From positions 8,817,124-8,881,123 of the forward strand of contig CM082596.2 of assembly GCA_040954595.2 (NCBI GenBank): a stretch of DNA of 64,000 nt. The letters are read 5' to 3'. Position 1 is the first letter of the stretch. The number at the start of each line of letters is the position of its first letter. The notes below the pieces were generated by a model, which was not told where the DNA came from, ran no database searches, and was given only the letters and a program-made list of their open reading frames with translations. This document shows, piece after piece, positions 208-61,894 of the stretch. The position numbers and the translations under genes are program-made. Source of the stretch: Balanoglossus misakiensis. Lineage: Eukaryota > Animalia > Hemichordata.

Positions 208-3102
<2,895 letters not shown>

Positions 3103-3419: not shown

Positions 3420-4290
3420 TCATTTCTTTGATCTCAAATCTTTTGAGGAGGACACCCCCCTCCCACACCCTCCATTCTCCGCCACATTTCATTTTTTGCT
3501 GGTTTGTCTATAGTATCAGGGCAGCGTGCTTACCACCCAAACCCAACCGATGATAATATTTAACAAAGTAGGCCTAAATATATAAGAGAGAATAATCGTT
3601 TAAACCATTTCGCATAACTGATAGTTTTGCGCTGCATCTTCTATATACTAGAAGTTTTATAAATGATGTCATGACGAAGATGGCGCCAAATTTTCTAACT
3701 TTGAATGGAGTGGCAAAAAGTAAAATTGGTCATCTCAAACATTGAGATTATTTGCTTTTGAGTTCATAAAAATGCAACTTTGAGCTACATATTTTACAAA
3801 ATTTTCTAATGTGGGAGGGGGACACCCCCTCTCACACCCTCCATTCTTCGCCACATATTATTTATTCGCTGGTTTGTCTAGTGTACCAGGGCAGACTTCT
3901 TCCCACCCCACCCCGATGCTTACTTTGAGTGGAGTGGCAAAATTAAAATTTGTCCCTCCTATCATTGAGTTAATTTGCTTTTGAGTTCATTAAAATGCAA
4001 CTTTGAGCACCGTATTTTACCCACCCCTGCCACTTTTCTTGTTTTACCAATTCTAGCAACTATTGTATTGACTTGTCATTTTATTTTGTTCATAGATTTC
4101 ATTTTTGCAACGATATACTATTATATACTTCAATTACTTTAAGAAATTTATGATTGACGTGCGAGCCTCATTCCCTTTATTGCATACAGTGTACATAGGA
4201 TCAGGACGGCGAATATTTTCGACGTGGTGGGGGTCATCATATTTTTGGGTCTGTCAAAGGGGGGGGGGGTCACTATTTTGTGGTGCTTAT
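3420..4290. repeat. Partial inverted copy of the interior of the Harbinger-type MITE at 4743-5559
   Basis: For example, 3790-3830 CATTTTACAAAATTTTCTAATGTGGGAG is the reverse complement of ~5355-5385, and 4040-4250 mirrors 4870-5100. Confidence 0.75.
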
Positions 4291-4411
4291 TGAAAAAGAA
4301 GGTCTATTTTTTCTCGTGGCATTGATACTGATGTTTTCCATGCGGAAAAAAGAGTAACTTTTCTATCAGACAGGGAATCTTTTGGTCTCGTCTCGGTCCG
4401 GGTTTTCAGAC

Positions 4412-4608
4412 CACAGGCGCTTGTATAGATGCTATTTCAGTTTTTTTTTATTAATAATTTATGTGTCAGTGGGGAATAGGCCCGAAGATAGCGTGAGCGC
4501 TCGTTTAACGCAAAATCGGGATATCGTCTAAGCTACTGATTTATCGTTTTTAGCCACTTTACCATTAATAAAAACTGAAATAGCATCTATCATGTACAAG
4601 CGCCTGTG
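4412..4608. mobile_element. 197-bp MITE with CA...TG ends and 7-bp TSD (P-element-like)
   Basis: TIR CACAGGCGCTTGTA / TACAAGCGCCTGTG, extended internal IR, direct repeat TTCAGAC at 4405-4411 and 4609-4615. Confidence 0.8.
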
Positions 4609-4742
4609 TTCAGACTCAATGTTACAAGTGGGCGATCCCCGGCAATTCCCGATTTTGCGATTTCTTTCACAAAAGAGGAATATTACGTCAGTAGATCGCC
4701 TTTTCGCTGTTTGGTTGTTCCGCAAAATATAGGTAGGCCTAA

Positions 4743-5559
4743 GGGACCGTTCAGTTTTTAAGACTGGGGGGGGGGGGTTGGCAACTTTGTGTCATCGGTT
4801 TTCAAAATCAGGCCGACCCCCCTTCACCCAGGAGCAAAATATGATGACCCCCCCCTTTGACAGACCCAAAAATATGATGACCCCCCATCCCCCACGCCCA
4901 AAACATTCGCCGTCCTGATCCTATGTTCATTGTATGCAATAAAGGGAATGAGGCTCCTCACACCTCAATTATAAATTTCTTAAAGTATTATTGAAGTATA
5001 TAATAGTATATCGTTGCAATAAAGAAATCTATGAACAAATGAAAATGACAAGTCAATACAATAGTTGCTAGAATTGGTAAAACAAGAAAAGTGGCGGGTG
5101 TGGGTGTGAAAGGGGGTGTCCCCCCCCCCACATAAGAATTTTTTTTTAAAATACAGTGCTCAAAGTTGCATTTTAATGAACTCAAAAGCAAAATAACTCA
5201 ATGTTGGGGAGGACCAATTTTACTTTTGCCACTCCACTCAAAGTAAGCATCGGTGGGGTGGGGTGGCAAGTAGTCTGCCCTAGTACACTAGACAAACCAG
5301 CCAATAAATGAAATCTGGCGAAGAATTAAGGGGTGGTTTTGGGAGGGGGTGTCCCTCTCCCACATTAGAAAATTTTGTAAAATAAAGGGCGCGAAACTGC
5401 AATTTTGTGGACTCAAAAGCAAAAGTTCGGTGGCAAAAGTATGGGACCCCCCTAAACGTTTACAAAAAAAGTTGACCCCCCCCCCTTTGGACTTCACAAT
5501 TTAAGTGACCCCCCCCCCTGGATTTTGCCGACCCCCGGCCGTAACAACTGAACGGTCCC
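4743..5559. mobile_element. PIF/Harbinger-type MITE
   Basis: TIR GGGACCGTTCAGTT / AACTGAACGGTCCC with TAA TSD at 4740-4742 and 5560-5562. Confidence 0.85.
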
Positions 5560-8132
5560 TAAATAGAATTAAAACTAAATTTTTGCATATTTTCTATGGA
5601 ACTGATATTCATTGATATTAATAAGTCGAAAAACAGCGATCTGATTGGCCAAAAAGTAATTATAAACAGAAGTTTTTTTTCAAGAGTAATGTGGAAATAA
5701 TAAAATCCATTGAAAGATAACAGAACGGATGAGGCTAGGGCGCCATGTCAAGGTTGGCCAGTTTGGCGCCCTGTATACGTGTACATGCGCTTGTATGAGT
5801 AGTACACATACAGTGATGTTCCTAGCCCACAAACTGGCAAGTGTCAGCTCAATAATTTATGCACGAAGAAACCATTAGTTATAACAGAGCGAGTAGGGTT
5901 TGCCGAACATTGATGGTAACACAAGATTTTACTTTAGTCTAGTCAATCTATGAGATTTTGGCACCTAACCCACCACAAGTTGCAACAGAATTTTTTTCTT
6001 CAGAATATATTTTGGAGAGGTGTCTAGAACAACATATTAAAAATGCACCCGAATCCACCTTGTGGAAATATGTCTAATTTGCATAAATTTCATATTGGAA
6101 ATTTTTGGGCCAAATATCGGGAAATAAACATGATTTTCCCATGATATTAAAGTTAAAAAATATTTCATGTGCATGAAGAACCATTTTGGAATAATATTTG
6201 ACATGGGCAGTTTTCATAATTTGCATAAATTCGATATGGCGAACATTATTCCTAGCAAACCATAATTGGGCAGTATATCGGGTACTACGCATAATATTTT
6301 AGTTTTTTTTTTATTTCAAAACTACCCCTATGACATTTGGAACAATTTTGAAAATATTTTGTTTACATTTGCACTTAATATTTTGCATAAATCCAATATG
6401 GCCACCAAATGAATGTTCAACAGCTTATCATACTCTGGCATATATAGTAAGGTTCTGGCATAGAATATATGTTGGTGGGTCTAGCCCTATATTGACTAGT
6501 CTAAAGAACTGTCGGCGTAATTGCTTTATTTGCTTGTTACTTTATTTGAACGCGAATTTGTCTTCTGTAACGTAGATGTTGTTATTTTTATATATCTTTT
6601 GTCTGTTTTGTTTGTTTGCCACAGGCCACCAAACAATCGTCCAAGGTCACCCCTATCATTGTTGATGAAGACTTCTCTATTTGAGGTGAGGATAATTGCG
6701 AAGTCGGTGATGTGACCAATCGTACTTGTTTAAAAACAAAGGGGCTTCAAGGGCTGCACTATGGCTGCACAGATATTTGAATAAATTTGTGGGAAATATC
6801 CAGCTGGTTTGGCGTACACCAGTAGAGTATGTATAGTTGCAGTTCTCGTATTTAAGAGTTATATGATTGTCATGTGTAAATTTGTTCTAAAACACCAAAT
6901 CTTATGTTTATTAACAAACATACACACACACACACAACTTTCAGTCATGTAATAAACTTTAATTTGCCAAAGTCTTTTTAATATAAATTAGTTCTTGAAA
7001 AATCAGAAATTTGACACCCGGATTTATTTTTTGATGGCCTGGAACAAATATTGTTGTACTAGTTTTTACCTGTTACACATTATTTCTGTATTTTCCCGTA
7101 CCCACATTTTTTGGTGTCTTTATAGCTTTTGGAAAATTTCTTTGAATTCACGTTTCCACAGATTCAACATTTTAATAGACGTGATTAGTGTGTGATAGTA
7201 TGTTAATACTGAGTTGAATTGTATTCGGATTTGATCTAACTGTGGTAGTTAATTTAGAGTGCTACGCTTTCTCCTTGTGAAATAAAAGTATACCGTCGTC
7301 CTCTGCTTTCTTTACGATTCCTCACAACTTGTGGTCATGTTTTCATTGTGGTTGGATACCAGACCTGATTGCTAAGTGGAGTTGGGGTCGAGTGGAATAT
7401 GTGAGGCTTCTTCCCTAGTATCGGTAAAACACTAGACTCTCTGACTACAGCAAATGGCTGCTTATTAGAATTGTGAGCAGCTTTCAAAAGCAAACGGCCC
7501 ACGCCATCACTGCAGAAAATTTAAATTACCTTTGAACCCGCGCTATATTATCCTGTGATATTTTAATATGGCTGCAACTATTGTACTGTCACAGAAGTTA
7601 TACATGTATGCAATCCATATAGTCAATGGCGCGGCGCAATACTGAAAATATTACATTTTCTTCCGTCTACTGCATGTCTTTTATCTCTTTATTTGACTGT
7701 GGGTGTTTAAACGGCCAGTCTGGTATGGTATCAACAAACCTTAGGACACTGAACAAAGTCTGATGGATGTTTTTATGCTTTGCCGAACAGGACAGTCAAA
7801 CATTAACTGATTCAATTCAGTCTAGTGACCACCACCACAACCGTGTTCAAATTTGTAAATCCGCAAAGTTGAAACATTCAATACTGAACAAGATTTCAGA
7901 AACCGGCACACATTAGGAAGTTTTCTTTGTGTATAAAATGTTGATTATATAATTCTACCATCTTCATGTCAAAATATCTCTCATTGTACAATAAATATAA
8001 TTGAATCGTTTAATAATTCAATTATCTTTATTGAAAACAGGAAATCTCTGTCTCTCCTTACGTGACCTCTGAACCAGGAAACCGTCTGTGATTTAACATT
8101 TTTGGGGTTTCTCGCCATGTAAGTTGGACACC

Positions 8133-11097
8133 ATGTTTCTCTTCACTGTCGTCTTGGTCATTTGCTCCGTGATAGCACGGCCATCCAGCTGCCAAGGTAA
8201 GTTTTATTAGTTTCGGGTGAATTTCGGATCAATTTTGAGTCTGTTTTACTGGTGGAAGTGCAAATCGTTCCCAAGTCCTCATATCATGTACTTGTAGTTT
8301 ATAAGCCTAAACGTGTGCACCTCTGCAGCCCTGTTCCCGATAAGTCCATGCGTGGCTATGAATTGTCGACTGAATTCACCATTCTTTCGTACCTCTATTG
8401 TTAGTGCACATTAGAGAAACAAACACGGGTAATTTTCATCCAATGGTTAGAGAGAAACAGAAAATATGGAGAAGGCAAGCCTGCCTGTGTAGAAATCTAC
8501 ATTTTGGCTTATGAACATCTTGGGGTGACAGTTAACGTGTGCGAGGGTATGGTGCCATAATATCTCCTGACAACGGGTTTACATGACTTTTTGCGAATGG
8601 AACTGGGCTACTTAAACACTCCTTTTATTTTAAATTTAGATGCAATATGTGGAGGTGAAATTCAAAAAGACGACGGAACGATTGATTTCACCGGAAATTC
8701 TTCAATGCAGACCAATGAATGCACCTGGACAATTTACACCAATGAGAAATCAACAGTCACATCCAAAATTCTTGCCTGTAAATTGCCTCTGTCAAGTTAC
8801 ATCGAGATCCGGGATGGAGACAATGACAACGAACCGATAATTGGAAATTACACAGACAGGGATTGTCCAAAAAATATCGAGTTCATACATGTAGAATATG
8901 CATCAACTAATGTAATGTGGGTTCGAATATATTCTCCTGAAATAATGGACGACGAGTGGTCCTTTACTTTATCTTTTACAGGTAAGTTTGCAAATGTATA
9001 CATTGTAGTAAGTAAAAGTTTGAGAATACCCCAAATCAGCAGATAAAGTTTGTATCATGCGCCTATATTAACAAAGTAAGTACTTGAAGTACATGTATGT
9101 TATGCCCATGGATTAATATGGGCATTTCCCATAGACAACACAGGACATGTCACAGGTCAAAGTCAACCGTTCTAGCAATCACAGACTGAATCAGAATGGT
9201 GCTGGCATGTTATTGACACAGAAAGTTCTTTAGGTAACCAACTGTGGAACGTTGTGATCCGTTTTTGAGCCAATTCTGCGAAATGCGATTAAAAAGTACT
9301 ATGAAAAACGTTGGTTTCATTCACTTTCACTTACGCATAACAGAGCTACAGCCAGCCAAAAACTGCGCGAACCCGGAAGTGAGTGACGTCAGCAACTGTT
9401 GTCCGCTGCCGACGCGTTGGAGCGAGCTTATGCTTATACACGCCTGCACTCACGCGACCGACGACGTTAGCACGGCAACATATTCTCGGGTAGTAGGCTA
9501 CAATTTTGAACCAGAGATTCCCTTCTACGACCAAGCGACTGAATTTTACAGAGGACAAAAGTTCATGCAGTTCTGATCTCCGATGTGTCCCGTTTGTCAA
9601 GGCTTACACTTGGTGTGGTTTCAGTGAAACCATAGACCCTAGAGTCTATGGTGAAACAGACAATGCTGCAATTAAACAATACCCTCCCTCGTTGTCTCTC
9701 CCTCGTTGTCACCTTTTCGAACCACTTTTCTTACAAAAATACTTAGTCACCTTTTATGGAGTTGAAAAGAACGCAGGTGCATCGTCCTGCTCTCCAGGTG
9801 TAGTACGTCCGTAGTATAATGGAAGCCAATACTATAGTTATTGTATGCATGTTTCGTCTCTTGAAATGTATTAAAACTGCCCTTTTTAGTTGCTTTCATT
9901 TGATAACTATGCGATCGTCAATAAATGGAAATTAAACCCAAATACGTGTACCAAAAAACGTGCAGGAAGGATTTAAAACGGTACGTTTATTATTATCAGC
10001 GGCAGTTAGAACAACTTTGTATAGGCCTTACGGTTTGTTCATAAACGTCGACATGCATGGCATCATGGACATTGCAGGGTCTATGTCTGCACGCATCGAC
10101 AAATACAATACACGAAGAGCATTGCCTTTGAAAGAAACTTATCCCCGTCGATTTTCCGAATATGTTTTTAAAATCATGAACTTGACATTTCGCCATGTCA
10201 GATCCGCGCAAAATGTGTCTGTTTATTGGAAATGACACGTCGAACGTGTAAGTTGCTGACGTCACTGTAGTATTTTCAACGCGCGTCTTCTGCTTGCGCA
10301 GGAAGTGAAAGTGAATTAACCCATCGGAACGTTGCCGTTTTTGACACCCGGTTTGTACTTTGAAGCCCAAAATTGAGGGTGTCGTTCCACTTTAACAGTT
10401 TCACTGGCGACACACAACGATGATATCCAATAATGACCTATGACAGTAGATTTCATTTTTTTCAACGTAACGACGACGTTGTGCACATTCAATTTTGACC
10501 AACACATTTTCATATCGAGTTTACATATGCGGTCGGTATTTTGTATATGAAATGCAACGCATTATTTCATTTCTAGATTTTTTTTATACAAAGTGAATAC
10601 ATTATTTCTCACTTTCTCATCCCATGGTAAGCATGTGGTGGCGAAATTGAAGCGACGAACGGTGTGATAGTGTCGCCGTTTTATCCCGACTCGTACGTGA
10701 AAGGTGGTATGTGCAATTGGACGATAAGTACCCCTCAAGGAAGTATTATAGATTCAAGATTCGAGAAATTCAGATTGCGATACGATGAAGATTTCGTCGA
10801 TTTGGGAAACAGTCTGAGCAATGGCGTGGCAGACATAGGGCGCTTTACCAATAAGGACAAACCCACGTCTATCACAATCGATCCTTCGACGTCGAATGGT
10901 ATTTGGGTGACACTGCTTGGACATGGTGATCTATCCGGAATTGAAAACGACCCGTATACTTTTACATTTAAATTTCAAGGCAAGTTCAGCACATTGTCAT
11001 TCATTATCACACAAACAGCGTCTATATTACCCCTATTTCATGTATGTATGTATGTGTGTGTGTGTACATGTATGTACATGTCTGTCTGTCTGTCTAT

Positions 11098-11164
<67 letters not shown>

Positions 11165-14100
11165 TTTGTATTTGTTTTGTTTATTTTTGCATTATAGCAA
11201 TAGGTGGTAATGGCGGTGACATATACGCATGGAAAGGTTTTGTGTACTCACCGGGGCACCCTATACGTCCTTACCCGAGAGATTCCATATTTAATTGGAC
11301 CATTCACTGTCCGAGTGGAACTATAGTCGTTGGGAAATTTGAGCTACTGGTGCTCGATATTTATGATTTCATCACCATTTTCGATGGAGATGACCAAACT
11401 CCATTTAAAATATATGAGCATGGGGACGATTATAGCGACGAATTTAACACAACGGGCAATACAATGGTAGTGCAGCTTGATTCAGAGTGGTTTGGTGACC
11501 TAGGGTATGGATATTTTGAGCTCTACTTCGAAGGTAAGTTTTGCAAAAGTATTCAAAATTATTTTCATTTTTTTTAGCTTATTACAAATAATTGTGCTGA
11601 AGAAAACTTTCTGAAAACGAGTAAATTTCGTTCACTTTCGACCGGAATATGATTTATATGAGTGTACTAATCTATGCTGAATCATCCAGCAACGTATCTT
11701 TACTATATTGTTCCTTCTGTATTTTGCATTTGCAGGTAAATTGGTATCAACTACGGAATCTGTCAGCGGTTATAACGGTTCAGTATTTTCTCCCATGTAC
11801 CCGTACCCATACCCACTGAACCTCGAATATACAACGGAGATATCTACACCTGAAGGAACCATCATGTATTTAAGATTTCTCGAGTTGGAGTTGAGAAGAG
11901 GCGACAATTTGTCTGTGTATGATGGCGATGGTAACCTACAGGTCGTGTACCAATCTGGTGCTTCTCTCGAACTTCTAGAAATACCCATGAATGTTTCCTA
12001 CCTTCTCCTGTACTCGGGAAATGAAGACAACTCTAGTTTTGGAACTTATCGTTTGGATTACCAAGGTAACACATTGTACTTGCAAAGTGTAGAGTCAACT
12101 TAATTGATTCAACGCGCACGTCGGTTGCTATGCATGGCTTCTATAGTCCGTGTGGTAGTTTGAAGTTTACTCTGCAAGTTGCGTGTAATCATCTTTCAAC
12201 CCACAGGTTCATACGTCTGCTTTCCTCCCGACGATGAAATTCACGCGGAGATATTTCCAGACGACGATTTTTATGATCCCGGCGACACTCTGATGGTGAT
12301 CTGCCATGAAGGATATGATCTCTCGACAAACTACTCGACCGTTACTTGTGGAGATGACGGGAACTGGAACACAGAAATGCCTGATTGCGTTGGTAGGATA
12401 GAGAATTGTGTATGGTAACGTTACAAAACTGTCAACCCCGCATCTGAAATCCTATTTATACGAACTTTGTACCAAATTATGCCTCATTTAACAAACACGG
12501 CTGACCTTTTACATGTGGTAACTAAATTTTTCATGCGCTTTGTCGGTCGTTGAGAGAACGTGTAGTTCCACCACAGATTTCCCTTAGATGTGTAATGCAC
12601 TATTTGTATATAACTTGGTGTGTAAGTGTATCTAAATTTATTAATTTATATCTTCCCTGTCTTCACAGTTGTGTCATGCGGAGACCCAGGTAAACTAGAA
12701 AACGGTGACGCAGAAGGTGATGATTTCACCTATGGTAGCAACGTCACGTATCACTGTCACGAAGGATACACACTGAACGGAACCGATACGATCACGTGCC
12801 AGTCGAGTGGATCCTGGTCTGCAGAGAAGCCCGTTTGTACACGTAGGTTGATGGTTCCTTTTCTTATAGCACAGCACAGTCAGCGGTAGCCTGGAGCAGA
12901 GGATCAGTGAATAATGATAAAGCTCTCAGTGTCAGATTATCACCTGATCTATTTGCTATGCCTGACGTACATCGTGAACAACGGAATAAAGATGCGATTT
13001 GGTTATATTGGACGTATAATGCACATGCGCTGTACAGTTTACAACGATGTAAAGAACTCTTTTATGTATTAATGTAATATATGCATCTTCCCCTTATACC
13101 AGCCGTTAACTGTGGTGAACCTGATGACGTAGAAGATGCCGAGAAGTCTGGCGACTCGTACCTCTATGACGACATAGTGGTCTACGAGTGTAATGAAGGG
13201 TACCAGTTCGAAAGCAACGTGACGTATGTCGTGTGTCAGGCCAACGGAGAGTGGACTGAGCTACCTGCATGCTTACCTGTTGGTAAATAAATATCACATA
13301 GTTATTATTAGTTATGATTTTCGCATAAGGATACAACTCCTTGTAACCAGCATGTATGTTGCCAAAGTTAGGGTCTCACCAAAACGTGCCCAATCTATTG
13401 GGCGTCGCAAGTACAGGTCGAAGTTACATTACAAACCTAACAATTTTACTGCAAATGATGCGATGTGATGTTAAACAAAGTCATAAAAGGGACAATGCAA
13501 AATACAAACTAGATTTCAGTGTCATTCCAAAACAAATGGATCCCCTCTTATGTAGATATAAGTTTATTTTAACCACGTCATTGCTGTTACAGGCCAGACC
13601 AGTGGTGTCAGCATTGCAGGTAAGGTCATATTATCGGGGGGTTATAAATTGTGGATATTGGGGACATAAAAGCTATGTTTACAAAAATTAAAATTTTAAT
13701 GAGCTGTATAATAACACACGTCTCTTGGTATTTGATGTTGTCTTAGTATTTACTTTTCCATTCATCTTACCCATAACTATAAATATTCTGTCCCGTTATT
13801 AAGCTGCCCATCCGATGAGTCTTCTGTTCATCCAAAATGTTGGATAATGGTATATCTCAGCGAAAGTGTAAAAACATGCAGTTGTATCTTTTGAAACTGG
13901 ATGATTTTAATTATTTTTTCCAGGAATTGTTTGCTTAATCATCCTGATACTGGCGATGGTCATTGGTGGGACTGCTATTGTTTTGTTTCTGAGAAGGTAA
14001 ATCTGTATTTCAAAACTGTGGTTAATTTCAATGTTACTTCCACGATACGTGTAAATCGTTAGGGCAAGTGTTGATATCTTATTAAAACGATATCACACTA

Positions 14101-14683
14101 TATACCATACGTCCCAATTTTGATTCAGCTGAAAATTGTACCATATGCCGTCTTAGACGTTTAACTGTCGAGTGCAATTAATTCCAGGTCACAGAAATGT
14201 GTATGTACCATAGGAAATGGAAAAACTGATGATCTGGATGATCTGAGTACCAACGAGGCAAGGGGTCCGGACCCTGAATACAAAAATACAAGTAACAATT
14301 TCAAAAGCACTGAAAACAATACAGCCCCTGCTGACAAATCCAGTCTACATTCTCGGGTCTACGAAAATGCAGGGGAGAGCGTCTCTTACGGAAACACCGT
14401 TGTTGATGGCTTCGGCGAAAGTTCGTATGTTAATGTCGACGGACGCAATCGTAATACAAATGCAAATCACATTGGTGACGTCTACCAGCCCCTCGGTCAT
14501 GTACAGGAGGAGAGTTACGCGAAACTCACAGGCGTGGATAACCCCGAGTTGAGGAAACTACACCCCGGGTTCAAAATGAACGAATTTCACGACAGCGCAG
14601 AACAAGCTGCCAGTGCAGAAGACGACACTGCTTATGCCGGGGTTTGTGACTCAGGATTCGTCGCTTGTGAACCGACCACTTAA
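8133..14683 (+). CDS. Type I membrane receptor, ~851 aa: signal peptide, 4x CUB, 3x CCP/sushi, TM, tyrosine-motif-rich tail
   Basis: Exons 8133-8196, 8640-8981, 10632-10979, 11198-11533, 11736-12065, 12207-12392, 12669-12842, 13103-13282, 13593-13619, 13924-13996, 14188-14683 total 2556 nt with an open frame. Domain exons are all phase 1-1. Signal MFLFTVVLVICSVIARPSSCQ; CUB motifs CGG..SPFYP..CNWTI; sushi C-G-D-P..Y-x-C..G-x-W..P-x-C; TM IVCLIILILAMVIGGTAIVLFL-RR; AATAAA at 14688. Confidence 0.88.
9148..10445. mobile_element. Old foldback/MITE-like element in intron 2 of the CUB-sushi gene
   Basis: Nested inverted blocks: AGTGACGTCAGCAACT (9382) vs AGTTGCTGACGTCACT (10251), TTCACTTTCACTT vs AAGTGAAAGTGAA, GTGGAACG vs CGTTCCAC, TGTCACAGGTCA vs TGACCTATGACA. 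Confidence 0.55.
11043..11170. repeat. Compound microsatellite (TATG/TG/TCTG then ATTT)n
   Basis: Directly visible; explains the low-complexity spurious ORF segments here. Confidence 0.95.
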
Positions 14684-15289
14684 TGAAAATAAATGTGGCC
14701 GACACGACGTAAACTTTATTTGAGTGCCAATACGCTTTGCAATGGTTTTACTTGAACATTGGGCAAGATGACGTCAGATTACATTCTTAAATTAATTTCG
14801 TATTTAGCTTTCAGTCATGAAATTGTTCGGATGACAATCAAAAACATAGCAGAACAAAAATTGACTAGTTTTTACGTTGCTAATTTTTGAAAACTTATTT
14901 TTATAACAACACAAAGTCTTGATCACAAGCTTGTCGAACGATTGCAATGGTCGTACATTAATTTAATACTTCGTCATCCAGTGAATAAGCTGATGGCAAT
15001 GCAGCTTAACATTCTTTTGTTGTATTCAAGTTTTATCTGACCAACGTGTTAATTTTGTAAAGCACGAACATCAGCGGAACTGTAAATTTGTGTCACGCGC
15101 CGCATGTATTCTTATTTACGGTGTTGTCCATATCGACACAGCACCGCCATACTGGCTGCGGCTGGCTACTATAGCTGTTCAGTATATTATAATATTTCCC
15201 CCAACAAGAGCCTGGCCACATTTAAGAGATGACATTCTATCAGATGCAAGATGCAGAAATGGTCAATCTTCTGCACACATCATTTCAGC

Positions 15290-15690
15290 CTGTCTACCAT
15301 GATAATATTTTAATATGGGAGCATTATTATATTTTCACATAAGTTGTATGTATGGTCAACGGCGCGGCGCAATGCAGGCGCTAGTGCCATGTTTCACTTA
15401 ACAAAACAATATTACATTTTCTTCCGTCTACTGCATGTCTTTTATCTCTTTATCTCAGTGTGGGTGTTTAAACGGCCAGTCCAGACCTTAGGACACTGAA
15501 CAAAGTCTGATGGATGTTTTTATGCTTTGCCGAACAGGACAGTCAAACATTAACTGATTCAATTCAGTCTGGTGACCACCACCATCGAGTTCCAAGTTGT
15601 AAATCCGCAAAGTTGAAACATTCAGTACAGAGTATAAAATCAAAACGGCCGTGGACTACGTAGTTTTCTTTGTGTATAAATATTTACGGC
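15290..15690 (+). repeat. Duplicated upstream region of the CUB-sushi gene (paralogous to ~7550-7940)
   Basis: Shared blocks such as CCTTAGGACACTGAACAAAGTCTGATGGATGTTTTTATGCTTTGCCGAACAGGACAGTCAAAC at ~7740 and ~15487. Confidence 0.9.
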
Positions 15691-16478
15691 ATAATCCTTC
15701 CATTCTCGAGTAAAACAATCTCTCATATAATGTATAATCTCGTTTCGTCACAGAAGTTGGTAGTTGGTGCAAATATCAAAGGTCGCATCGGAGATCGACC
15801 ATATACAAGGCTTTGGCGTTTATTGCATGTGCGTTTATGACTTTATTGTGGTCATCATGACAACTATTAAAATTAATTTCATCTCACCTAATTCAAGTTT
15901 TCTGTTGCTTCGATACCACAGACTGTGTCTATAAGGCAAAAATCTCTTTCTCTGTGCTGACTGAAATTATCCTGATTTTTACTTGAAATGTTGGAATATG
16001 TTCTTCATGTCGAATCATGATCACGAATTGGGTGATAACCATATTTGGTGTAAGGTATCGTCGTCTGTAGTTTATGCGTCCATTACTAACAAACAGTTGA
16101 TGTTTTACAAACAACTTGCCCCTACAAAATAACTTCACCTTTTTAAACTGAAATTCTAGTCTGGCCACATGTCTCATCACTGGCGAACATGGAAAGAAAC
16201 AAACAGATTTTATCTGTTGCGTTTTGCTGCACTTCTCATCCACTGATACTGCCAATACGTGTTGAGTCGATTTTTGGAGGTTACCATGGTACGAGAGGAT
16301 TGAATAGTTAAATCAGGAAGTATCTTTGACGACTTCTGTCTCTCCATTGAGGACAGAGGCAAAAAAACTCATCGTGTAATCATGCATAAAATGCATATTT
16401 TAATTTCTACGTGACATTTTAACCAGGAACTCGTCTGGGATTTATTTTTAGGATTTCTCGCCATGTAAGTTGGACACC

Positions 16479-17329
16479 ATGTTCCTCTTCACTGTCGTCT
16501 TGGTCGTTTGCTCCGTGATAGCGCGGCCATCCAGCTGCCAAGGTAAGTTTTATTAGTTTCGGGTGAATTTCGGATTAATTTGGTTGGGTCTGTTCTGGTG
16601 GAAGTACAATCGTGACTAAGAGGCCTCTTACTTGTAGTTTATAAACTTGTGGGCGCACATCTGTTGCATGTCGTCGATAAGTCCATGTAGCTATAAATTG
16701 TCGACAGAATCCACCATTCTTTCGCATCGTCTCCTATTATTGCTGTCACTTATCAGAACGATCCAAACACGCCGGGTTGCTTGCATGATGGGTGAGAAAG
16801 TGAAAGTATTGAGAAGACAAGTCTACCAAATATGCAGTGAACTACTGAGAGAGCAGAATTCATAGCCTTTGTCGACTTTTGTTGTATATTAATTTTGCTT
16901 ACCTCGAGGTCACAAAGGAAAATTTGTGTAAAATCCAATATTTTGTGGTTTAGACCTATTGTGCGGAACACTTCTTTCAACGTCATGAGCTTGAGTTGGG
17001 CATTTTATTTCAATTGTCTCCGTTGTTCATTCACTGGATATTTACTTGTAGATGCAATATGTGGACGCGAAATTCACAAAGACGAAGGAACGATTGATTT
17101 CATCGGAAGTTCTTCGATGCAGACCAATGAATGCATCTGGACAATTTACACCAATGAGAAATCAACAGTCACATCCAAAATTCTTGCCTGTAAATTGCCT
17201 CTGTCAAGTTACATCGAGATCCGGGATGGAGACACAGGCAACGAACCGATAATTGGAAATTACACAGACACAGATTGTCCAAATAATAACAACGATTACA
17301 TACACAATGTACATGTAGGATATACGTAA
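16479..17329 (+). pseudogene. Truncated tandem paralog of the CUB-sushi gene (signal exon 16479-16542 plus partial CUB1 exon 17052-17329)
   Basis: Exon 1 encodes MFLFTVVLVVCSVIARPSSCQ with the same donor. Exon 2 is nearly identical to 8640-8870, then diverges and stops at TAA 17327-17329. No downstream exons found. Confidence 0.75.
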
Positions 17330-18284
17330 ACTAATACAATTTTGGAAAAAAAGTTACCAGTTAAATAACATACCCATTATCGCGTTTGATCTGTTCATCC
17401 CTAAACTATTCAACTTGGACAATGACTGCCATGATAAGTCCTGTTACCCCCACAAACAATTTTTGAAACATGAAAACCAATGACTTGAATCCATTTCAAT
17501 CAAAACGCACTAAAATAACAGCCACTGCTACCAAAAGAACCCCGCATCTAACACCACCACCAATGAACATGTATTTTGTCTGAGTGTGATGACAAAACAT
17601 AGACATCAAGACAATGAGTTATAACATGTTCCTCCCACACTTCACAAGACCACCAAAACTTTCCCCTGCCTCAATAACCGGCACTAATTCCCCACAGAAT
17701 AAAACTTGCACATTTATTACAAAACTGCATTTGCTGCATCCGAAAACAAAGCCACACAACAAATCAGCGTGAACTACGTCATCGACAATGACTTGTTAAA
17801 ATAAGGGCCAATCATCAAAACGGTGGCTTATGTTTTCTTTAAGTAAGTTTCCAACTCCTTTTAGAATAGTTTTTCAACGAAATGAATGAACAAGTAGTAA
17901 AATACTTGAATACATAAAATGGCAAGAGAGATAATAAAGTTATAATTTTTATTTGGTTTACTTATTTAACATCCCAATTGGTCTGGTCCTGGGACATACG
18001 CGTGTTGGCTCCCATACAAGATTTTCGCTAGTTCCTAATCCCCTGGTAGTGTGGTTTGCGCGCGCGCGGGAATATTCATTGTGTATTTGTAGCAGTATAG
18101 TGTGAATGTTAATCGTTTAGGCCTACCACTGCAGGGGACCGAGTACAGTACATGTAATAATCCACGCGACGTTGGGCAATCTGTAGGTAGATTATCTTTT
18201 ATCAATAATCAAGTGTTCTTTTACAGTTATTTACAACATCGACAAACAACAGCACGGAATGCCGCATTCTTTTATAAAAAAATA

Positions 18285-18400: not shown

Positions 18401-19932
18401 TCTTGTTTCTGGCTTCTTCGTTGTTTCGCTGTTTCGCAGAATATAACTAGCCTGGGTAGTTATATTTTGCGAAACGACGAAACAGATTACGCTCGAAACT
18501 ATGAATAAACAAAATATAACTGATATTTTTTACGTGGCGTTGGGGGCGATGTTTCCTTGCCGTGCGTCATATCATGGCGGTCGGTTTGAGTGAACTTCCA
18601 TCGCTTGGTTTGAATGGAGCGCTAATCCCTCGGAATGGAAATATTATTTACGAAATACTGGTTCCAAGTATTCGCGAGAAGTCCGGGTTCAAGATTGATC
18701 ATAGACAGTAGAAGTTTCTAGTGTGGTTAGACAGTGAGAGTAGATATATTGCCCAACGTGTTGGAATGGAACATAATGATGACGTCACGTGTCATGGCGC
18801 TGGTAATATTCGAGATGGATGTCGTCACAGAACCTGGAGAATATTGCATCATGATTTGTGTACGCGTTTAATCCAATTTTCTTGCTGGAGTCCGCTCTGA
18901 AGATGGAACACAGTGTGCATGGAATGTTGTTGGTCGACTTGAATGCTTCAGTGAGTATTATTTATCATGTTCAATGTTGTTTATGCCGTGACTTGCTGCA
19001 GTTTTGCAGCCCCTCCGTCTCCCCTGGACGATTGTTGTTTTTATGCCGTGACATGACGTAATTCTTCCTAAACTGGCCATCTTCAACAGGTTGAAAATTT
19101 TCCCAGTTCAGTTGTGCGCAACTAGCTGAATTACAGAAATGTGGTAAACAGATACAAAAATTGGCTCATTCGAAGAAAGTTGCCACGTTGGCTCCGGAAA
19201 AGCCAAGTGTTACTGCTGGACATCACAATGTCTGAGGGTGTTCATATTTTTCCAGTCTGATAGTTCGGGGGGGGGGGGGGGGTCATTTCCTGTAGTTTTT
19301 GTCACGGGAACCTGATACGATTTACAATGCGTATGTCTTGTATATCTATTTGTACGTTTCAACAAAATATTTTTCTCTAGGGGACTTTTCAGAATTTACT
19401 TCCAATTTTCTTACCTTCCTGGTGATTTTTTCCATGCCCCCCCCAGTAAATTGTGGAGAAAATCTGTGCCCCCCCCTTAAATTTCCTGTTTTTTTCCGTG
19501 GTCCCCCAATATATACATGCATGTACGGCACATACAGTCTGACAAGTTCATCACTCTTTGCAAGAACAATCAAGAGATCATTTACTCACTGTATAACCAA
19601 GTTTACAGGGGACAGTAAAATCATGTTTTTGCAGGGACTGCAAGTGGCACACTTTTGGGAAGCCTAGCAATGGGCAACTATTGATGGTAGTTTTCTGAAA
19701 ATAAGTTAATTATGACAAAAACTCCTGTTGCAATGGGCAACTAAGATGGTAGTTTTCTGAAAATAAGTTAATTATGACAAAAATTCCTGTCACTATGTTC
19801 ACTACATCAAACACTATTGTTGTAAAGAAGACATGTCAAAAAACACTGAGTCAGGTCTTTTGCATCAAAGGTTTTTCAAATATAATCGTTGTATCTAATT
19901 ATCAAGCAGAGTGTCATAGTATTTGTTTTATA

Positions 19933-20626
19933 TTTAAGCAATAACCCCTACCGCAGGCAGGTATACACGAGATTTGTGTACAATTCGAGACGTACAGCAC
20001 TAGCCGTTAGGCGAGTGCTATATATATGGAGCGAATTTTACCGACTGAGACGGGGATTATTGCTATTACAGTCAAACCTGTCTATAGTGGCCAGTCAAGG
20101 GACTTTACCAAACTGGCCTTTCTAGACAGGTGGTCTTTATAGACAGATTAATTTATACACGTATAAATTGCACAGGGACTGTAACTAAGTGGTCACTACA
20201 TAGAGGTGGTCACTAACACAGGTTTGACTGTATATTATATCAACAATTGATTTTATGGCATTTCAGTGTCATTTTCTTAACAAAACAGCATCAGAAGATG
20301 ATTTTACGATCGTGAACCAACATGGCGATGATGAATGTAAACACGAGCGGCCCGGAATCAAGCATTAAACATGAAGCAGACGACAAAAAGTGACAAAAGT
20401 GCAAAATATTCAGAGCAGAGCAGTTCCAAAATAAAACGTCCTTAAATTCAAGTGTTTTTATAATATTTATTTGGTTCAATCCCATGCGACTGAGGTTTTA
20501 CCGCACATTTTTCCTGCTTCATGCCAGTTCAGGGGCCCGTTTTATCACTGCCAGCAGTGCTATATGAGTATTTTAGCATCGTTGGATTGAGCTCTCGTCC
20601 AATCAGAATGGCGGATGGTCGCATGA
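19933..20626 (+). mobile_element. Hairpin element, subfamily beta, with internal deletion and nested Tc1/pogo MITE
   Basis: Starts TTTAAGCAATAACCCC; body matches 62170-62593; the 3' tip is replaced by the LTR-like sequence. Confidence 0.8.
20069..20230. mobile_element. 162-bp Tc1/pogo (Tigger-like) MITE
   Basis: TIR CAGTCAAACCTGT / ACAGGTTTGACTG with TA TSD; the empty site is visible in the host-element copy at ~62170. Confidence 0.9.
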
Positions 20627-21232
20627 TGTGATGAAGTTTATTGTTTGTTTTGTTTTGTGGCCAGGTGCACCTATGTTGATTTCTTTATTTAACATATAAG
20701 CGTGACCAGGTGTTAATTAGTTTTGGTCATATAAAAGCCACCCAGTGCCACGTTGTCGCATGGCTTATTTTGATTCTGGTCTGGTAGCGTCTGGTAGCTG
20801 TGCCGTCGCATTGTCGAGGAGTTTTGGGAGCCCACCGTACGGAGTGTGCCTGTCTACTGTGGTAGCTCAGGATTGACACTGGAGAAGGGATTTGGTGAAG
20901 GCGTGGTGGATGTTTTCGAGGACGCCGCGTGGAATTTGGGAGCCGTCCTGAGGTTGCACGTTTCCATGTCACGGTGGAACTGCATTTGAGTGACTGTCTT
21001 TTGTACACTGGCATTATACGGACAGAAAGGCCGGAATTGTTGGGCGTCGAGTCACCAAACTGTTTGTGAGACTTTGAACTTGTTAGAAATTTTGTTTGGT
21101 CACCTGGTCACGCTCGAGTTTAGTGTGTAGTTTAGTGTAAATATTATTTAACATATTGTGAATATTACTCGTATCTGCAAATATCGGTTGACGAGGTGTT
21201 AACGCACTGCAGTGTTTTCAACGCGTGTCACA
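20627..21232 (+). mobile_element. Solo-LTR-like sequence
   Basis: TGTGAT...GTCACA termini, internal TATAAAAG at ~20730, ~600 bp, interrupts another element. No matching TSD. Partial second copy at 41294-41854. Confidence 0.55.
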
Positions 21233-21628: not shown

Positions 21629-21860
21629 TTAATGCCAGTTTGGCAGCATTGCTTTACAAAGGTAAATATACATTAGGCAAATAAACACAAAATGAAACAA
21701 ATCTTCAATACAATAATTGTTGTTTTTCAAACAAAATTCACATAGTCTTTCTTCTGGAGGAATATTATCGTGGCACCCTCTCACAATTTCCAGGGCATGT
21801 GATGAGCAGTGAAATCTGGACATTCCATTTTTGAATTTAAGAATATGAACAGTGCTGAGA
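21629..21860 (-). mobile_element. Non-LTR retrotransposon ORF2 C-terminal zinc-knuckle remnant
   Basis: SRFHCSSHALEIVRGCHDNIPPEERLCEFC...CIEDLFHFVFIC resembles the R-x-SSH-x-L-x-IE-x-GR...ERLC-x2-C...IEDEFHF-x3-C tail of invertebrate LINEs. Confidence 0.75.
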
Positions 21861-22066
21861 TATTTTTCTGGTTCAAAGCATTGATTTGAAGTTGTGATTT
21901 GAAAGTAACTTAGGAGTTGATTGTATTCCTTTGTGCCCGATCAGCCAAGCACAATCTTTTAGTCTCTGTGTAAAGCAGTATTAAGAGCTATAGAACTGGT
22001 TACCTCTAATAACAAACCCTTGGCGACCGAATTGTTACACTCTGTGAACGGTTTCACAAGTGGACA

Positions 22067-22300
22067 CTAAGCTATCCCAACACTTATGACGCAAGATGCA
22101 AGGCTGGAGTGATGTGTAGCACAATGAATAGAAACCAATGATTTGTTAACATCTCGTTTCTGATAAGCTACATTCCCATTTAGTTTACTAGTGCTGACTA
22201 CAGCATCATCAATGCCAAAACCTACGCGTATTCTAAAGGAATGTTCTTTGCAGTCAAAAACGCACATACCGGTACATGTACAGCACTTGTGATAGTCCCT
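22067..22300 (-). mobile_element. Degenerate hAT transposase fragment (ZNF862-like)
   Basis: VGFGIDDAVVSTSKLNG...KSLVSIHCATHHSSLAS resembles the hAT G-x-G-x-DGA...G-x-x-NGV...IHC-x-x-H-x-L-x-LA segment. Confidence 0.65.
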
Positions 22301-22974
22301 GAAATTACCATCCATACCTTCTACATTTCTGTCACTCACCCATGATTTCTATACTGTTCGAAAGTTTTGATTTTGTGCTCAAAATTGTTTTCAACTTTCT
22401 TAATTGCAGGAGGAGCTTTCCATGTGATCTAGCTGACACGCCTTGTTGGGAAAAGTTGAAGATTACAGAAATGGATACAAATTACTACAGCTAATATTTG
22501 AGTAGGGAAGTAACATTTTTTTTATTTATACTGTATGTATTTTACTGTTTTGCTTGGCACCTGGATTGTGCTGAACTACAAATACTGGCCTGCTGCAAAC
22601 ATGGTAAGCATCTGCTATATTCAGTTTGGTTGTGTTGAAAATAGAGCAGTTATATTTCTTAAAATCAATGACAATTGAAAGACAAATTGGGTTTTATCAT
22701 CAAAAAGGTAAGATTGTAGTTTGTAGACCGCGAGATAAGACAGAACCTTTAATCAATAATAGACAGGGCCTGTAATAGTATCAGATGTATATTACTGGTG
22801 AAAATAATAATTTGAGTGGTTACAGGATAAGGTTTGATAATGTTTCAAATTAAATATTAAACAGGAGTACCCCTTGTGTAAATGATTCAGTATAAAATAG
22901 GAAACCTTGATAATGAAGATTAGTTATTATTGTGCACATTAATAATGTTGTTGTTATGATATCAAACATAATAA

Positions 22975-23185
22975 TAAAATTATGATGATGAGATGACAAT
23001 GAAAAAAGTAATAATGATGATGACTATGAAATAACAAAATAGTAATGACAAAAATGATGGTGGTGATATGACAAAAATACAGTAATGAATAAGATGATGA
23101 TGATGATGATGATGATGACGATGACGATGATGGTGATGATGATGAAGAAATGAAAATGACAGTAATATTGATGATGATTATGATT
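22975..23185. repeat. (GAT)n-rich microsatellite
   Basis: Directly visible; paralog at ~58870-59130. Confidence 0.9.
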
Positions 23186-24064
23186 AGTACTTTATAACTG
23201 TGTAAGAAAGACCCAAATAACAGGAGTTTCTGCTGAGCATATGTCAATGTGGTATTGTCTGGTTTTGATGGATCTACAAGATGCTTTGAGATGCAATTGG
23301 CTGGAGAATGAATATGTTTTGAATGGTGTAGGTGGTGATTAATGGTCTTAATTTAATCCAGAATAATGGGTGTAATGTTGTACCTGTTAGCTGTTGCATT
23401 GTGGTTGTGGTGGTATAAAATAACGGAATAATAATGTTAGTGAAGGTTGAATTTCACCATAAATTACACAGAGCTGTATTTTCATCAAGACAGTCAGTCA
23501 TATTCATCTTAAACGTTCATCAGAATTGGTAGCCTGAAACATGCATAGTTGATATTGCATACTTTGTGATTCTGTGTACAGAGCTTTGAAAGGCAGATGA
23601 TTCTGTGTACAAACTAGAGAAAGATGATCCTGGTACATAGAGCTGTTGGTGAAAACATGACTGGTGTATTGAATTGAATAAAAGCTTTTTTTCTTCTTCT
23701 AGGAATGAACGTAAAATGCCATTTTACACAGTTAACCCTGTCTGTTTTCCAGGCAAAAGACATGTATGTAAATTTAACTGCAATTACCATGGGTAGTGCC
23801 AACTGTTATAGCATTTTAAACCGTAACTTTGTGTTGGAGATTAACAGCAGTGTTGAATATGATGGTGATACTGATGATGGTGATACTGATGATGATGGTG
23901 TACCAACTGGTCGGCAGTTTTAAGCGTCACTTCACAGTCATGATCAACAGCTGTGTTGAATATATTGATGATGGTGATAATAGTGGTGATGATAATGGTG
24001 ATATTCTAATATCCATAAAAATATATTGGGTATACCAACTTTTACAAGTTTTATAATTGTAACA

Positions 24065-24600
24065 ATGTTGCTATAGTTACACTTTACTTCAACAGGGGAA
24101 AGTTTACCATGAGATACACACATAGATCTTGTATTATCTATAGATTTGAAGTTGTAATCTCAAATGTTTTGTTGTGTAATAACCAAATGAATTCCACTAT
24201 GTTGCTATAGTTACACTTTACTTCAACAGGGGAAAGTTTACCATGAGATACACACATAGATCTTGTATTATCTATAGATTTGAAGTTGTAATCTCAAATG
24301 TTTTGTTGTGTAATAACCAAATGAATTCCACTATGTTGCTATAGTTACACTTTACTTCAACAGGGGAAAGTTAACTATGAGATACACACATAGACCTTGT
24401 AGTATCTATAGATTTGAAGTTGTAATCTCAAATGTTTTGTCGTGTAATAACCAAATGAATTCCACTATGTTGCTATAGTTACACTTTACTTCAACAGGGG
24501 AAAGTTTACCATGAGATACACACATAGACCTTGTAGTATCTATAGATTTGAAGTTGTAATCTCAAACGTTTTGTCGTGTAATAACCAAATGAATTCCACA
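24065..24600. repeat. 134-bp tandem repeat, 4 units
   Basis: Unit starts ATGTTGCTATAGTTACAC at 24065, 24199, 24333 and 24467. Confidence 0.95.
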
Positions 24601-25639: not shown

Positions 25640-25749
25640 CGTGATGATGATGATGATGATGATGATGAATTGATGATGATGATGATGATGATACAATTAA
25701 CAGTGATGATGATGATGATGATACAATTAACAATGATGATGATGATGAC

Positions 25750-25782
<33 letters not shown>

Positions 25783-25835
25783 TATGATGATACAATTAAC
25801 AGTGATGATGATGATGATGATGATACAATTAACAG

Positions 25836-25869
<34 letters not shown>

Positions 25870-25880
25870 ACAATTAACAG

Positions 25881-25925
<45 letters not shown>
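25640..25925. repeat. (GAT)n microsatellite punctuated by ACAATTAACAGT
   Basis: Directly visible; source of the spurious poly-M and poly-I ORFs; paralog at 61830-61992. Confidence 0.95.
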
Positions 25926-25926
<1 letters not shown>

Positions 25927-41854: not shown

Positions 41855-42082
41855 ATTAAATTAACAGCATTTTCAATGGATCATATGTGGGTGTTGACAA
41901 TACTCAGTTGTTTAACAATTTCACATTTACTGTATCCTTTTAACAAACATGATGAGAAAATTAACGAATTCTAGTCTGGACTTGAATTGAGCTCAGTTAT
42001 CAACAGTAACAACACTGACTGTTCACTGTACATATATGGTCTGTGCTGGCAGGCCAAATAAGTTGGACATTTTATTATGCTT

Positions 42083-56350: not shown

Positions 56351-56384
56351 AACCAAAGTTGAACTACATGTATGCTCTCGGTCT

Positions 56385-59059: not shown

Positions 59060-59090
<31 letters not shown>

Positions 59091-61851: not shown

Positions 61852-61894
<43 letters not shown>

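What the first reader, a model, noticed from the sequence alone, without database searches (positions are those of the whole stretch)
8133..14683. CUB-sushi receptor whose tail combines an ITAM, four YxN sites, ITIM/ITSM-like motifs and a juxtamembrane CxC
Seen: the last exon (14188-14683, missed by the ORF track) encodes RRSQKCVC...EYKN...VYEN...SYGN...SSYVNV...DVYQPLGHVQEESYAKL...TAYAGV. YQPL-x7-YAKL (14483-14527) fits the ITAM consensus YxxL-x6-8-YxxL. All seven tail tyrosines lie in SH2-type motifs. Known: ITAMs recruit Syk/ZAP70, YxN binds GRB2 (as in LAT), SxYxxV is ITIM-like, TxYxxV is the ITSM, and juxtamembrane cysteines serve palmitoylation or Src-kinase binding; CUB and CCP are complement-type modules. 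Inference: one chain fusing a complement-like ectodomain with receptor and adaptor signalling modules, a candidate invertebrate phagocytic or recognition receptor. I do not recognise this architecture as a named family.
Basis: partly seen in the sequence, partly recalled or inferred. Interest (0 to 1): 0.85.

Follow-up and report, generated by a model that had tools for sequence, protein, structure and literature searches.

The report
Acorn-worm CUB-sushi receptor with ITAM tail
An intact 11-exon gene, likely from an acorn worm, is predicted to encode a cell-surface protein with complement-type outer modules and an inner tail carrying an immune-receptor activation motif plus four adaptor-docking motifs, so it likely works as a one-chain activating receptor, though its expression, ligand and immune role are untested.

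Summary
Eleven exons join in one frame (849 aa): signal peptide, 4 CUB, 3 sushi, one TM and a 166-aa tail with 7 tyrosines. All seven sit in YxN or Yxx[LIVM] (3 of 100,000 shuffles do as well). The ITAM spacing at 14483-14527 is exact (P 0.002).

Homologs exist: three Ptychodera flava loci with automatic names. The closest (XP_070571246, 48% over residues 1-593) also has 7 tail tyrosines, 3 YxN and an ITAM-like YQTM-x7-YATL, although the tails no longer align. YENxG recurs in 3 of 4 tails.

The CxC and the ITSM-like site occur only here. ITIM matches are at chance level, and SSYVNV reads better as the LAT-type Gads motif YVNV.

Best reading: a hemichordate family of kinase-less CUB-sushi receptors whose tails likely dock Syk and GRB2/GADS after phosphorylation. 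Invertebrate ITAM receptors and ITAM+YxN tails are known; this ectodomain on such a tail was not found in ten paper searches. Expression, ligand and phagocytic role are untested.

The parts
8133..8196 (+). Exon 1: ATG and predicted signal peptide (aa 1-21)
   Evidence: hydrophobic N-terminus; P0010 also starts with a hydrophobic leader
8640..8981 (+). Exon 2: CUB1 (4 Cys)
   Evidence: Pfam PF00431 E 8e-8; 58 of 110 aligned residues identical to P0010
10632..10979 (+). Exon 3: CUB2 (2 Cys); ends at a GC-AG donor
   Evidence: Pfam E 7.9e-13; junction; 53 of 94 identical to P0010
11204..11533 (+). Exon 4: CUB3 (1 Cys, so no intradomain disulfide)
   Evidence: Pfam E 3.9e-5; 55 of 107 identical to P0010; Cys count
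11736..12065 (+). Exon 5: CUB4 (no Cys)
   Evidence: Pfam E 2.9e-4, 21.6 bits; 65 of 110 identical to P0010
12207..12392 (+). Exon 6: sushi/CCP1
   Evidence: Pfam PF00084 E 1.1e-10
12669..12842 (+). Exon 7: sushi/CCP2
   Evidence: Pfam E 1.9e-15; 75% identical to P0008 and P0009
13103..13282 (+). Exon 8: sushi/CCP3
   Evidence: Pfam E 3.4e-11; 44 of 59 identical to P0010
13593..13619 (+). Exon 9: 27-nt stalk micro-exon (phase 1-1; skipping it would keep the frame)
   Evidence: junction sequence only; least certain exon; P0010 has no matching stretch
13924..13996 (+). Exon 10: transmembrane helix and start of the RRS stop-transfer
   Evidence: hydropathy; no charged residue inside the helix
14188..14683 (+). 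Exon 11: whole cytoplasmic tail and stop codon
14198..14206 (+). Juxtamembrane CxC (C689, C691); possible palmitoylation site, not conserved
   Evidence: 1 of 4 family tails has CxC, P0008 has a single Cys
14279..14287 (+). YxN site 1 (Y716, YKN)
14360..14374 (+). YxN site 2 (Y743, YENAG); best-conserved tail motif
   Evidence: YENxG in 3 of 4 tails, each P 0.001-0.005 in shuffles
14387..14395 (+). YxN site 3 (Y752, YGN)
14420..14437 (+). YxN site 4 (Y765, SSYVNV): the LAT/LAX-type Gads motif YVNV; also fits the loose ITIM pattern
   Evidence: YVNV named as the Gads motif in PMC3342071; P0010 has YANI
14483..14527 (+). ITAM consensus YQPL-x7-YAKL (Y784, Y795), Asp at -2
   Evidence: ITAM-like YQTM-x7-YATL in P0010
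14627..14644 (+). TAYAGV (Y834): YxxV; the ITSM-defining Thr is not conserved
   Evidence: P0008 has EYADV on the same ungapped diagonal, which is not significant (P 0.12)
16479..17330 (+). Truncated tandem copy: exon 1 and the first ~85 codons of CUB1, then a stop; no further exons in the window

Best explanation
This gene is predicted to encode a kinase-less, single-pass receptor (4 CUB + 3 sushi outside, a 7-tyrosine tail inside) of a small, likely acorn-worm family, which likely signals by being clustered, tyrosine-phosphorylated by a Src-family kinase and then docking a Syk-type kinase on its ITAM and GRB2/GADS-type adaptors on its four YxN sites. Shown: the reading frame, domain order, motif enrichment, and the same tail type in the closest Ptychodera homolog. 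Inferred from known ITAM and YxN biology: phosphorylation, Syk and GRB2/GADS binding, and an activating output (ERK, calcium, actin). Inferred most weakly: that the cell is an immune cell and the outcome is uptake or defence. Rough odds: phosphotyrosine scaffold 0.8, Syk through the ITAM 0.55, immune or phagocytic role 0.35-0.4.
For: Intact 849-aa frame with phase-matched domain exons. 7 of 7 tail tyrosines in YxN or Yxx[LIVM] versus 7 of 42 in the ectodomain; 6 of 7 have an acidic residue within 4 positions upstream (P 0.07, weak). ITAM spacing P 0.002. P0010 repeats the design: 7 tyrosines, 6 of 7 in motif (P 5e-4), 3 YxN, and YQTM-x7-YATL, which a shuffled P0010 tail matches as well in 2.7 of 10,000. 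Pooled, 7 of 14 tyrosines are YxN (P 1.6e-4). YENxG in 3 of 4 tails. The rest of the tails does not align better than shuffles (P 0.42 for P0010 and for P0008, 0.003 for P0012), so motifs appear to be kept while linkers drift. The TM has no charged residue, which fits a receptor that carries its own motifs (the charged-TM adaptor rule is recalled). Pathway precedent: oyster CgIgR recruits Syk through its ITAM (PMC6994640); amphioxus SYK phosphorylates an ITAM receptor (PMC13344425).
Against: No RNA, protein or phosphorylation data were obtained. The ITAM-like pair is in 2 of 4 tails, needs Met at +3 in P0010, and lies 56 residues nearer the membrane there, on the other side of the YxN-hydrophobic site, so homology of the two ITAMs is not shown. 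P0012 has 3 tyrosines and no ITAM; P0008 has no YxN and 5 NxxY instead, so the family is not uniform. Only 3 homologous loci from one species were found, each a RefSeq prediction. The base rate of such tails among acorn-worm membrane proteins was not measured, and Syk/GRB2 genes were not checked in this animal (no genome held). In fish G6f-like the YxN was dispensable for reporter signalling (PMC3528668).
Confidence: 0.55

Rival explanations
1. A non-immune Src/Abl-substrate scaffolding receptor of the CDCP1/DCBLD type (adhesion, migration, growth-factor or neural signalling). YxN docking would be the core function and the ITAM spacing incidental or secondary.
For: The best-kept motif is YENxG (3 of 4 tails), not the ITAM. 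CUB-ectodomain, multi-tyrosine scaffolding receptors are known: DCBLD1/2 (PMC6029619 abstract) and CDCP1 (PMC3832668 passages). A CDCP1 cluster appears among the Atlas feature hits at 0.79, a lead only. CUB and CCP proteins have many synaptic roles (PMC9083331).
Against: Two family members carry a YQx-hydrophobic-x7-YAxL pair. DCBLD tails use YxxP, absent here. LCCL, discoidin and CDCP1-type CUB Pfam families were not hit.
Confidence: 0.25
2. An endocytic cargo receptor (cubilin- or SEZ6-like) in which the Yxx[LV] tyrosines are AP-2/lysosomal sorting signals rather than phosphorylation sites.
For: The best PDB match of CUB2 and CUB3 is cubilin. P0008 has 5 NxxY (P 0.004), resembling PTB/endocytic signals. 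YxxL and YxxV fit the Yxx-hydrophobic sorting consensus (recalled).
Against: Sorting signals do not explain 7 YxN among 14 tyrosines of this protein and P0010. This tail has no NxxY. The cubilin match is generic CUB similarity.
Confidence: 0.1
3. A membrane complement regulator or C3-fragment receptor like Sez6/CSMD1, working through its three tandem CCPs, with the tail secondary.
For: Three consecutive CCPs next to the membrane, as in Sez6, which inhibits C3 convertases (PMC8081827). Top Atlas feature hits for P0010 are SEZ6-type clusters at 0.88-0.90. PDB sushi matches are complement regulators.
Against: The closest homolog has only 2 CCPs, below the three or more typical of regulators. The three CCPs are very acidic (net -15, -7, -13), whereas C3b-binding CCPs usually use basic patches (recalled). 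Sez6 has 5 CCPs, only three of them consecutive, and a short tail. The five-motif regulator test (PMC6683126) could not be run.
Confidence: 0.07
4. The motifs are chance, or the gene is not expressed in this form.
For: No transcript evidence was obtained. The motif classes were chosen after seeing the sequence. A broken partial copy lies next door.
Against: 849 codons without a stop over 11 exons; a homolog with the same design; shuffle P of 3e-5 here and 5e-4 in P0010.
Confidence: 0.03

Closest known systems
Ptychodera flava XP_070571246.1 'cubilin-like' (P0010), XP_070570712/3.1 'seizure protein 6-like' (P0012/P0009), XP_070569346.1 uncharacterized (P0008)
   Same: True homologs. P0010: 48% identity over residues 1-593, the same four CUBs in order, TM, RRS start, and a 7-tyrosine tail with YxN and an ITAM-like pair. 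All share one longest-contig length, so they are likely on one chromosome.
   Different: Automatic annotations, not studied proteins. Domain counts vary (P0010 4 CUB + 2 CCP; P0012 3 + 3; P0008 4 CCP, no Pfam CUB and no signal peptide in the model). Tails differ in length (98-245 aa) and motif set.
Invertebrate ITAM receptors: oyster CgIgR (PMC6994640, passages), Hydractinia Alr (PMC9546547, passages), Botryllus FcoR (PMC12582321, passages and section 17); Drosophila Draper (cited within PMC9546547)
   Same: Single-pass, kinase-less receptors with ITAM, hemITAM or ITIM tails. FcoR has a sushi domain. CgIgR signals through Syk to ERK and phagocytosis.
   Different: CgIgR, Alr and FcoR have Ig-type ectodomains (Draper's is EGF-repeat, recalled); none is described with CUB domains in the passages seen, nor with four YxN sites.
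Fish G6f-like (PMC3528668, passages)
   Same: One chain with both an ITAM and a GRB2-binding YxN.
   Different: [quoted passage not shown]
Transmembrane adaptors LAT, NTAL, LAX, GAPT (PMC3342071, passages)
   Same: Several YxN sites (GAPT: 4 of 7 tyrosines), the YVNV Gads motif, juxtamembrane cysteines.
   Different: They have only a few extracellular residues and no ITAM is described in the passages seen; their cysteine motif is CxxC, not CxC. No homology was found.
SEZ6 family and CSMD1-3 (PMC8081827, PMC9083331, passages)
   Same: CUB + CCP + TM; three membrane-proximal CCPs in tandem.
   Different: SEZ6 has 5 CCP + 2-3 CUB and a short tail; CSMD has 14 CUB + 26-28 CCP. Here 4 CUB come first, then 3 CCP and a 166-aa tyrosine tail.
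DCBLD1/2 (PMC6029619, abstract) and CDCP1 (PMC3832668, passages)
   Same: CUB-containing, kinase-less scaffolding receptors phosphorylated by Src-family kinases on tail tyrosines.
   Different: DCBLD uses YxxP/CRKL with LCCL and discoidin domains; CDCP1 binds Src and PKC-delta. No ITAM is described for either in what was read; that neither has sushi domains is recalled.

Membership tests
ITAM-bearing receptors | Cytoplasmic Yxx[LI]-x(6-12)-Yxx[LI] with acidic residue upstream | tested here: met
   DVYQPL-x7-YAKL in the tail; consensus from PMC3528668 and PMC6994640
ITAM-bearing receptors | Motif conserved in homologs | tested here: inconclusive
   Strict in 1 of 4 tails, relaxed in 2 of 4; same spacer, different position
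ITAM-bearing receptors | Src phosphorylation and Syk tandem-SH2 binding | not testable with these tools
   Needs a bench assay
ITIM/ITSM receptors | Conserved [SIVL]xYxx[IVL] or TxYxx[VI] above chance | tested here: not met
   ITIM P 0.13-0.28 in the 3 of 4 tails that have one, at different sites; ITSM in 1 of 4, and both patterns also occur in ectodomains
Transmembrane adaptors (LAT/NTAL/LAX/GAPT) | Very short ectodomain | tested here: not met
   About 640-residue ectodomain
Transmembrane adaptors (LAT/NTAL/LAX/GAPT) | Multiple YxN sites in a non-catalytic tail | tested here: met
   4 YxN, P 0.0018, including YVNV
Transmembrane adaptors (LAT/NTAL/LAX/GAPT) | Juxtamembrane CxxC palmitoylation motif (LAT, NTAL, PAG) | tested here: not met
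   CxC, not CxxC; absent from the 3 homologous tails
SEZ6 family | 5 CCP + 2-3 CUB, short tail | tested here: not met
   4 CUB then 3 CCP, 166-aa tail versus PMC8081827
CSMD1-3 | 14 CUB and 26-28 CCP | tested here: not met
   versus PMC9083331; no further CUB/CCP exons in the window except the truncated copy
Cubilin | EGF repeats and 27 CUB domains, no TM (recalled) | tested here: not met
   No EGF-repeat exon, 4 CUB, one TM
DCBLD / CDCP1 | LCCL + discoidin domains with YxxP tail, or CDCP1-type CUB domains | tested here: not met
   No such Pfam hits; no YxxP in this tail
Regulators of complement activation | Three or more tandem CCPs | tested here: inconclusive
   3 here, 2 in the closest homolog
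Regulators of complement activation | Ordered M5-M3-M1-M2-M4 motif pattern (PMC6683126) | not testable with these tools
   The motif matrices were not in the passages read; supplements were not opened

The most novel reading that the evidence does not exclude
This is an activating immune receptor with LAT built in. The CUB-sushi ectodomain captures an opsonised or damaged target, the ITAM recruits Syk, and Syk phosphorylates the chain's own four YxN sites (one is LAT's exact YVNV) to assemble a GADS/SLP-76/GRB2 signalosome. It would be a concrete candidate for the unknown membrane recruiter proposed for invertebrate deuterostomes that have GADS and SLP-76 but no LAT (amphioxus, PMC5431462), and a CUB-type ITAM receptor not found in the papers searched.
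Probability: 0.2. Interest if true: 0.78.

Novelty: new variant of a known kind. Interest (0 to 1): 0.52.

Why it matters
Invertebrate ITAM receptors described in the papers read are Ig-type. A CUB-sushi receptor with an ITAM and several GRB2/GADS sites would widen the set of ectodomains that feed the Src-Syk pathway in deuterostomes. It also gives a testable candidate for how that pathway builds a signalosome without LAT, which was not found in amphioxus (PMC5431462) or Botryllus (PMC12582321). The family shows tails re-wired between paralogs (ITAM+YxN, single YxN, NxxY repeats) under a shared ectodomain. The single pieces (ITAM in invertebrates, ITAM+YxN, CUB scaffolding receptors) are all known, which caps the surprise.

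Tried and rejected
Tail as query: 0 of 709 candidates scored in the word search and 0 hits among 1.84 billion representatives. The tail is too diverged: even true homologs do not align. CUB2 as query: 0 of 93 candidates, although P0010 is about 56% identical there, so blanks of this search mean little. No RNA holder listed for 13900-14900; no evidence either way. No whole genome held, so no paralog count, no Syk/GRB2 check and no base rate. The Atlas could not read the window's tail; the homolog P0010 gave only generic SEZ6/sushi look-alikes at 0.90 or below and TM-scores under 0.5. AlphaFold of P0010 on a 3-row alignment failed (mean pLDDT 34.5) and was not used or fold-searched. One search was translated out of frame and is not used. 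Earlier-findings look-ups by place, sequence and words showed no note on this gene or a look-alike. Papers that added nothing: PMC5701461 (abstract), PMC11175523 (passages; 'cub' hits were DOIs), PMC13409769 (passages). Rejected: membership of SEZ6, CSMD, cubilin, DCBLD/CDCP1 and LAT families; ITIM/ITSM and CxC as family features; positive selection on the truncated copy (9 replacement vs 1 silent codon change, P 0.24). Apparent homology of the tail end to P0008 (GFK...YAxV) is not above shuffles (P 0.12). Complex prediction was not used: it cannot model phosphotyrosine and no Syk sequence was in hand.
Full report
Observation. Eleven exons between 8133 and 14683 join into a 2550-nt frame of 849 codons without an internal stop. 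Nine introns are GT-AG and one is GC-AG; every domain exon is phase 1-1. Pfam gives CUB for exons 2-5 and Sushi for exons 6-8, and nothing for the tail. A 23-residue uncharged TM is followed by RRS and a 166-residue acidic tail. The seven tail tyrosines are YKN, YEN, YGN, SSYVNV, YQPL-x7-YAKL (14483-14527) and TAYAGV. Of 10 candidate acceptors near exon 11, three give this frame, one gives a 98-aa alternative frame and six stop within 20 residues. The chosen one reproduces the RRS of all three homologous tails.

More than chance. In 100,000 shuffles of the tail, four YxN arose at P 0.0018, an ITAM at P 0.002, and all seven tyrosines in YxN or Yxx[LIVM] at P 3e-5. Only 7 of 42 ectodomain tyrosines fit. 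The ITIM-like (P 0.17) and ITSM-like (P 0.04) matches are weak, and both patterns also occur in the ectodomain. The motif classes were picked after seeing the sequence, so the homolog test below carries more weight.

Homologs. Searches with the tail and with CUB2 were blank. A profile of the three sushi exons gave 11 hits among 169 candidates. Three were Ptychodera flava proteins; one has a longer isoform, so three loci and, with this gene, four tails. The other 8 hits are sushi-repeat proteins: 2 have a TM with a 26-31 residue tail and no ITAM, 6 have no TM followed by a tail; they were left out of the family counts. XP_070571246 (P0010) is closest: 48% identity over residues 1-593, all four CUBs in order at 51-59%, CCP3 at 75%, and one CCP fewer. 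The window is therefore likely an acorn worm other than P. flava; earlier scan notes on this genome say the same. CUB3 has one cysteine and CUB4 none, and these CUBs lack the cysteine-bearing loop seen in cubilin.

What the tails share. P0010's 140-residue tail also has seven tyrosines, 6 of 7 in motif (P 5e-4), three YxN, and YQTM-x7-YATL. A shuffled P0010 tail yields a pair that matches our ITAM this well in 2.7 of 10,000 trials. YENxG is present in 3 of 4 tails. Against this: whole tails do not align above shuffles (P 0.42 with P0010 and with P0008; 0.003 with P0012). The ITAM-like pair is at tail position 45 in P0010 and 101 here, and has Met at the first +3. P0012 has three tyrosines and no ITAM; P0008 has twelve tyrosines, no YxN and five NxxY. 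The CxC and the TxYxxV occur in 1 of 4 tails. SSYVNV contains YVNV, which PMC3342071 names as the Gads motif of LAT and LAX (passages), a better reading than ITIM.

Mechanism. Most likely the ectodomain binds a ligand and clusters, a Src-family kinase phosphorylates the tail, Syk docks on the ITAM and GRB2/GADS on the YxN sites, giving an activating signal (0.55 for this chain of steps). The structure and motif enrichment are shown; every biochemical step is inferred. Precedents: oyster CgIgR binds Syk through its ITAM and promotes phagocytosis (PMC6994640, passages); amphioxus SYK phosphorylates an ITAM receptor (PMC13344425, passages). The immune role is the weakest step: no RNA run could be used and the ligand is unknown. 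Rivals are a CDCP1/DCBLD-type non-immune scaffold (0.25), an endocytic receptor (0.10), a Sez6-like complement regulator (0.07; the CCPs are strongly acidic, and P0010 has only two) and chance or non-expression (0.03).

Comparison with what is known. It works like invertebrate ITAM receptors (CgIgR; Hydractinia Alr, PMC9546547, passages; Botryllus FcoR, which has a sushi domain, PMC12582321, passages and section 17) and like fish G6f-like, which already combines ITAM and YxN (PMC3528668, passages). It is not a member of SEZ6 (PMC8081827, passages), CSMD (PMC9083331, passages), DCBLD (PMC6029619, abstract), CDCP1 (PMC3832668, passages), cubilin (definition recalled) or the LAT-type adaptors: each fails a defining feature. 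The complement-regulator motif test (PMC6683126, abstract and passages) could not be run. No supplements were opened; those of PMC12582321 and PMC9546547 list tail motifs and may bear on how common YxN is in such tails.

Novelty. Ten full-text searches listed no paper describing a CUB-sushi receptor with an ITAM or this hemichordate family; most listings were seen only as titles and abstract starts, and subscription journals are largely missing. The homologs carry automatic names only. I rate it a new variant of a known kind. The boldest open reading is a receptor with LAT built in: amphioxus has SLP-76 and GADS but no LAT-like molecule was found, and the authors propose an unknown membrane recruiter (PMC5431462, passages); Botryllus lacks LAT and SLP-76. 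I give this 0.2. From recall, tyrosine-rich YxN/YxxL tails are common in marine invertebrate receptors, and earlier notes report other ITAM/ITIM receptors in this genome; the base rate was not measured and could lower the score.

Verdict. Observation confirmed; interpretation partly supported; interest 0.52.

Noticed in passing
window 15408-17335 (+): Partial tandem duplicate directly downstream: upstream region (82% identical to 7647-7984), exon 1 and about 85 codons of CUB1 (88% DNA identity), then a stop; no later exons in the window. 9 replacement vs 1 silent codon change, not significant.
   Followed up: partly
window 46381-52158 (-): Uninterrupted 1925-codon ORF of a ZNFX1-type helicase (Pfam ZNFX1, AAA_11, AAA_12), about 32 kb from the receptor; ZNFX1 as an antiviral RNA sensor is recalled. 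No functional link was tested.
   Followed up: partly
window 10979/10980: GC-AG intron donor (AAG|GCAAGT) after the CUB2 exon.
   Followed up: yes
P0008 tail (Ptychodera flava XP_070569346.1): Family member whose tail has five NxxY, several in a repeated GF/F-x-x-N-x-x-Y-E unit (P 0.004), instead of YxN; the window's tail has look-alike units without the tyrosine (GFKMNEF, GFVACE), not significant.
   Followed up: partly
window 18502-21183 vs 39201-41858; 21800-27247 vs 57698-63975: Large near-identical duplicated blocks (89-97%) with internal tandem repeats; segmental duplications or mobile elements.
   Followed up: no
window 56278-57330 (-): Two adjacent ORFs that look like pieces of a pogo/Tigger-type transposase (recalled resemblance; no Pfam hit at E 0.001).
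   Followed up: partly
window 1948-2277, 42777-43092, 3751-5423: MITE-like palindromic or inverted repeats; the 316-bp element occurs twice at 99% identity in opposite orientation.
   Followed up: no
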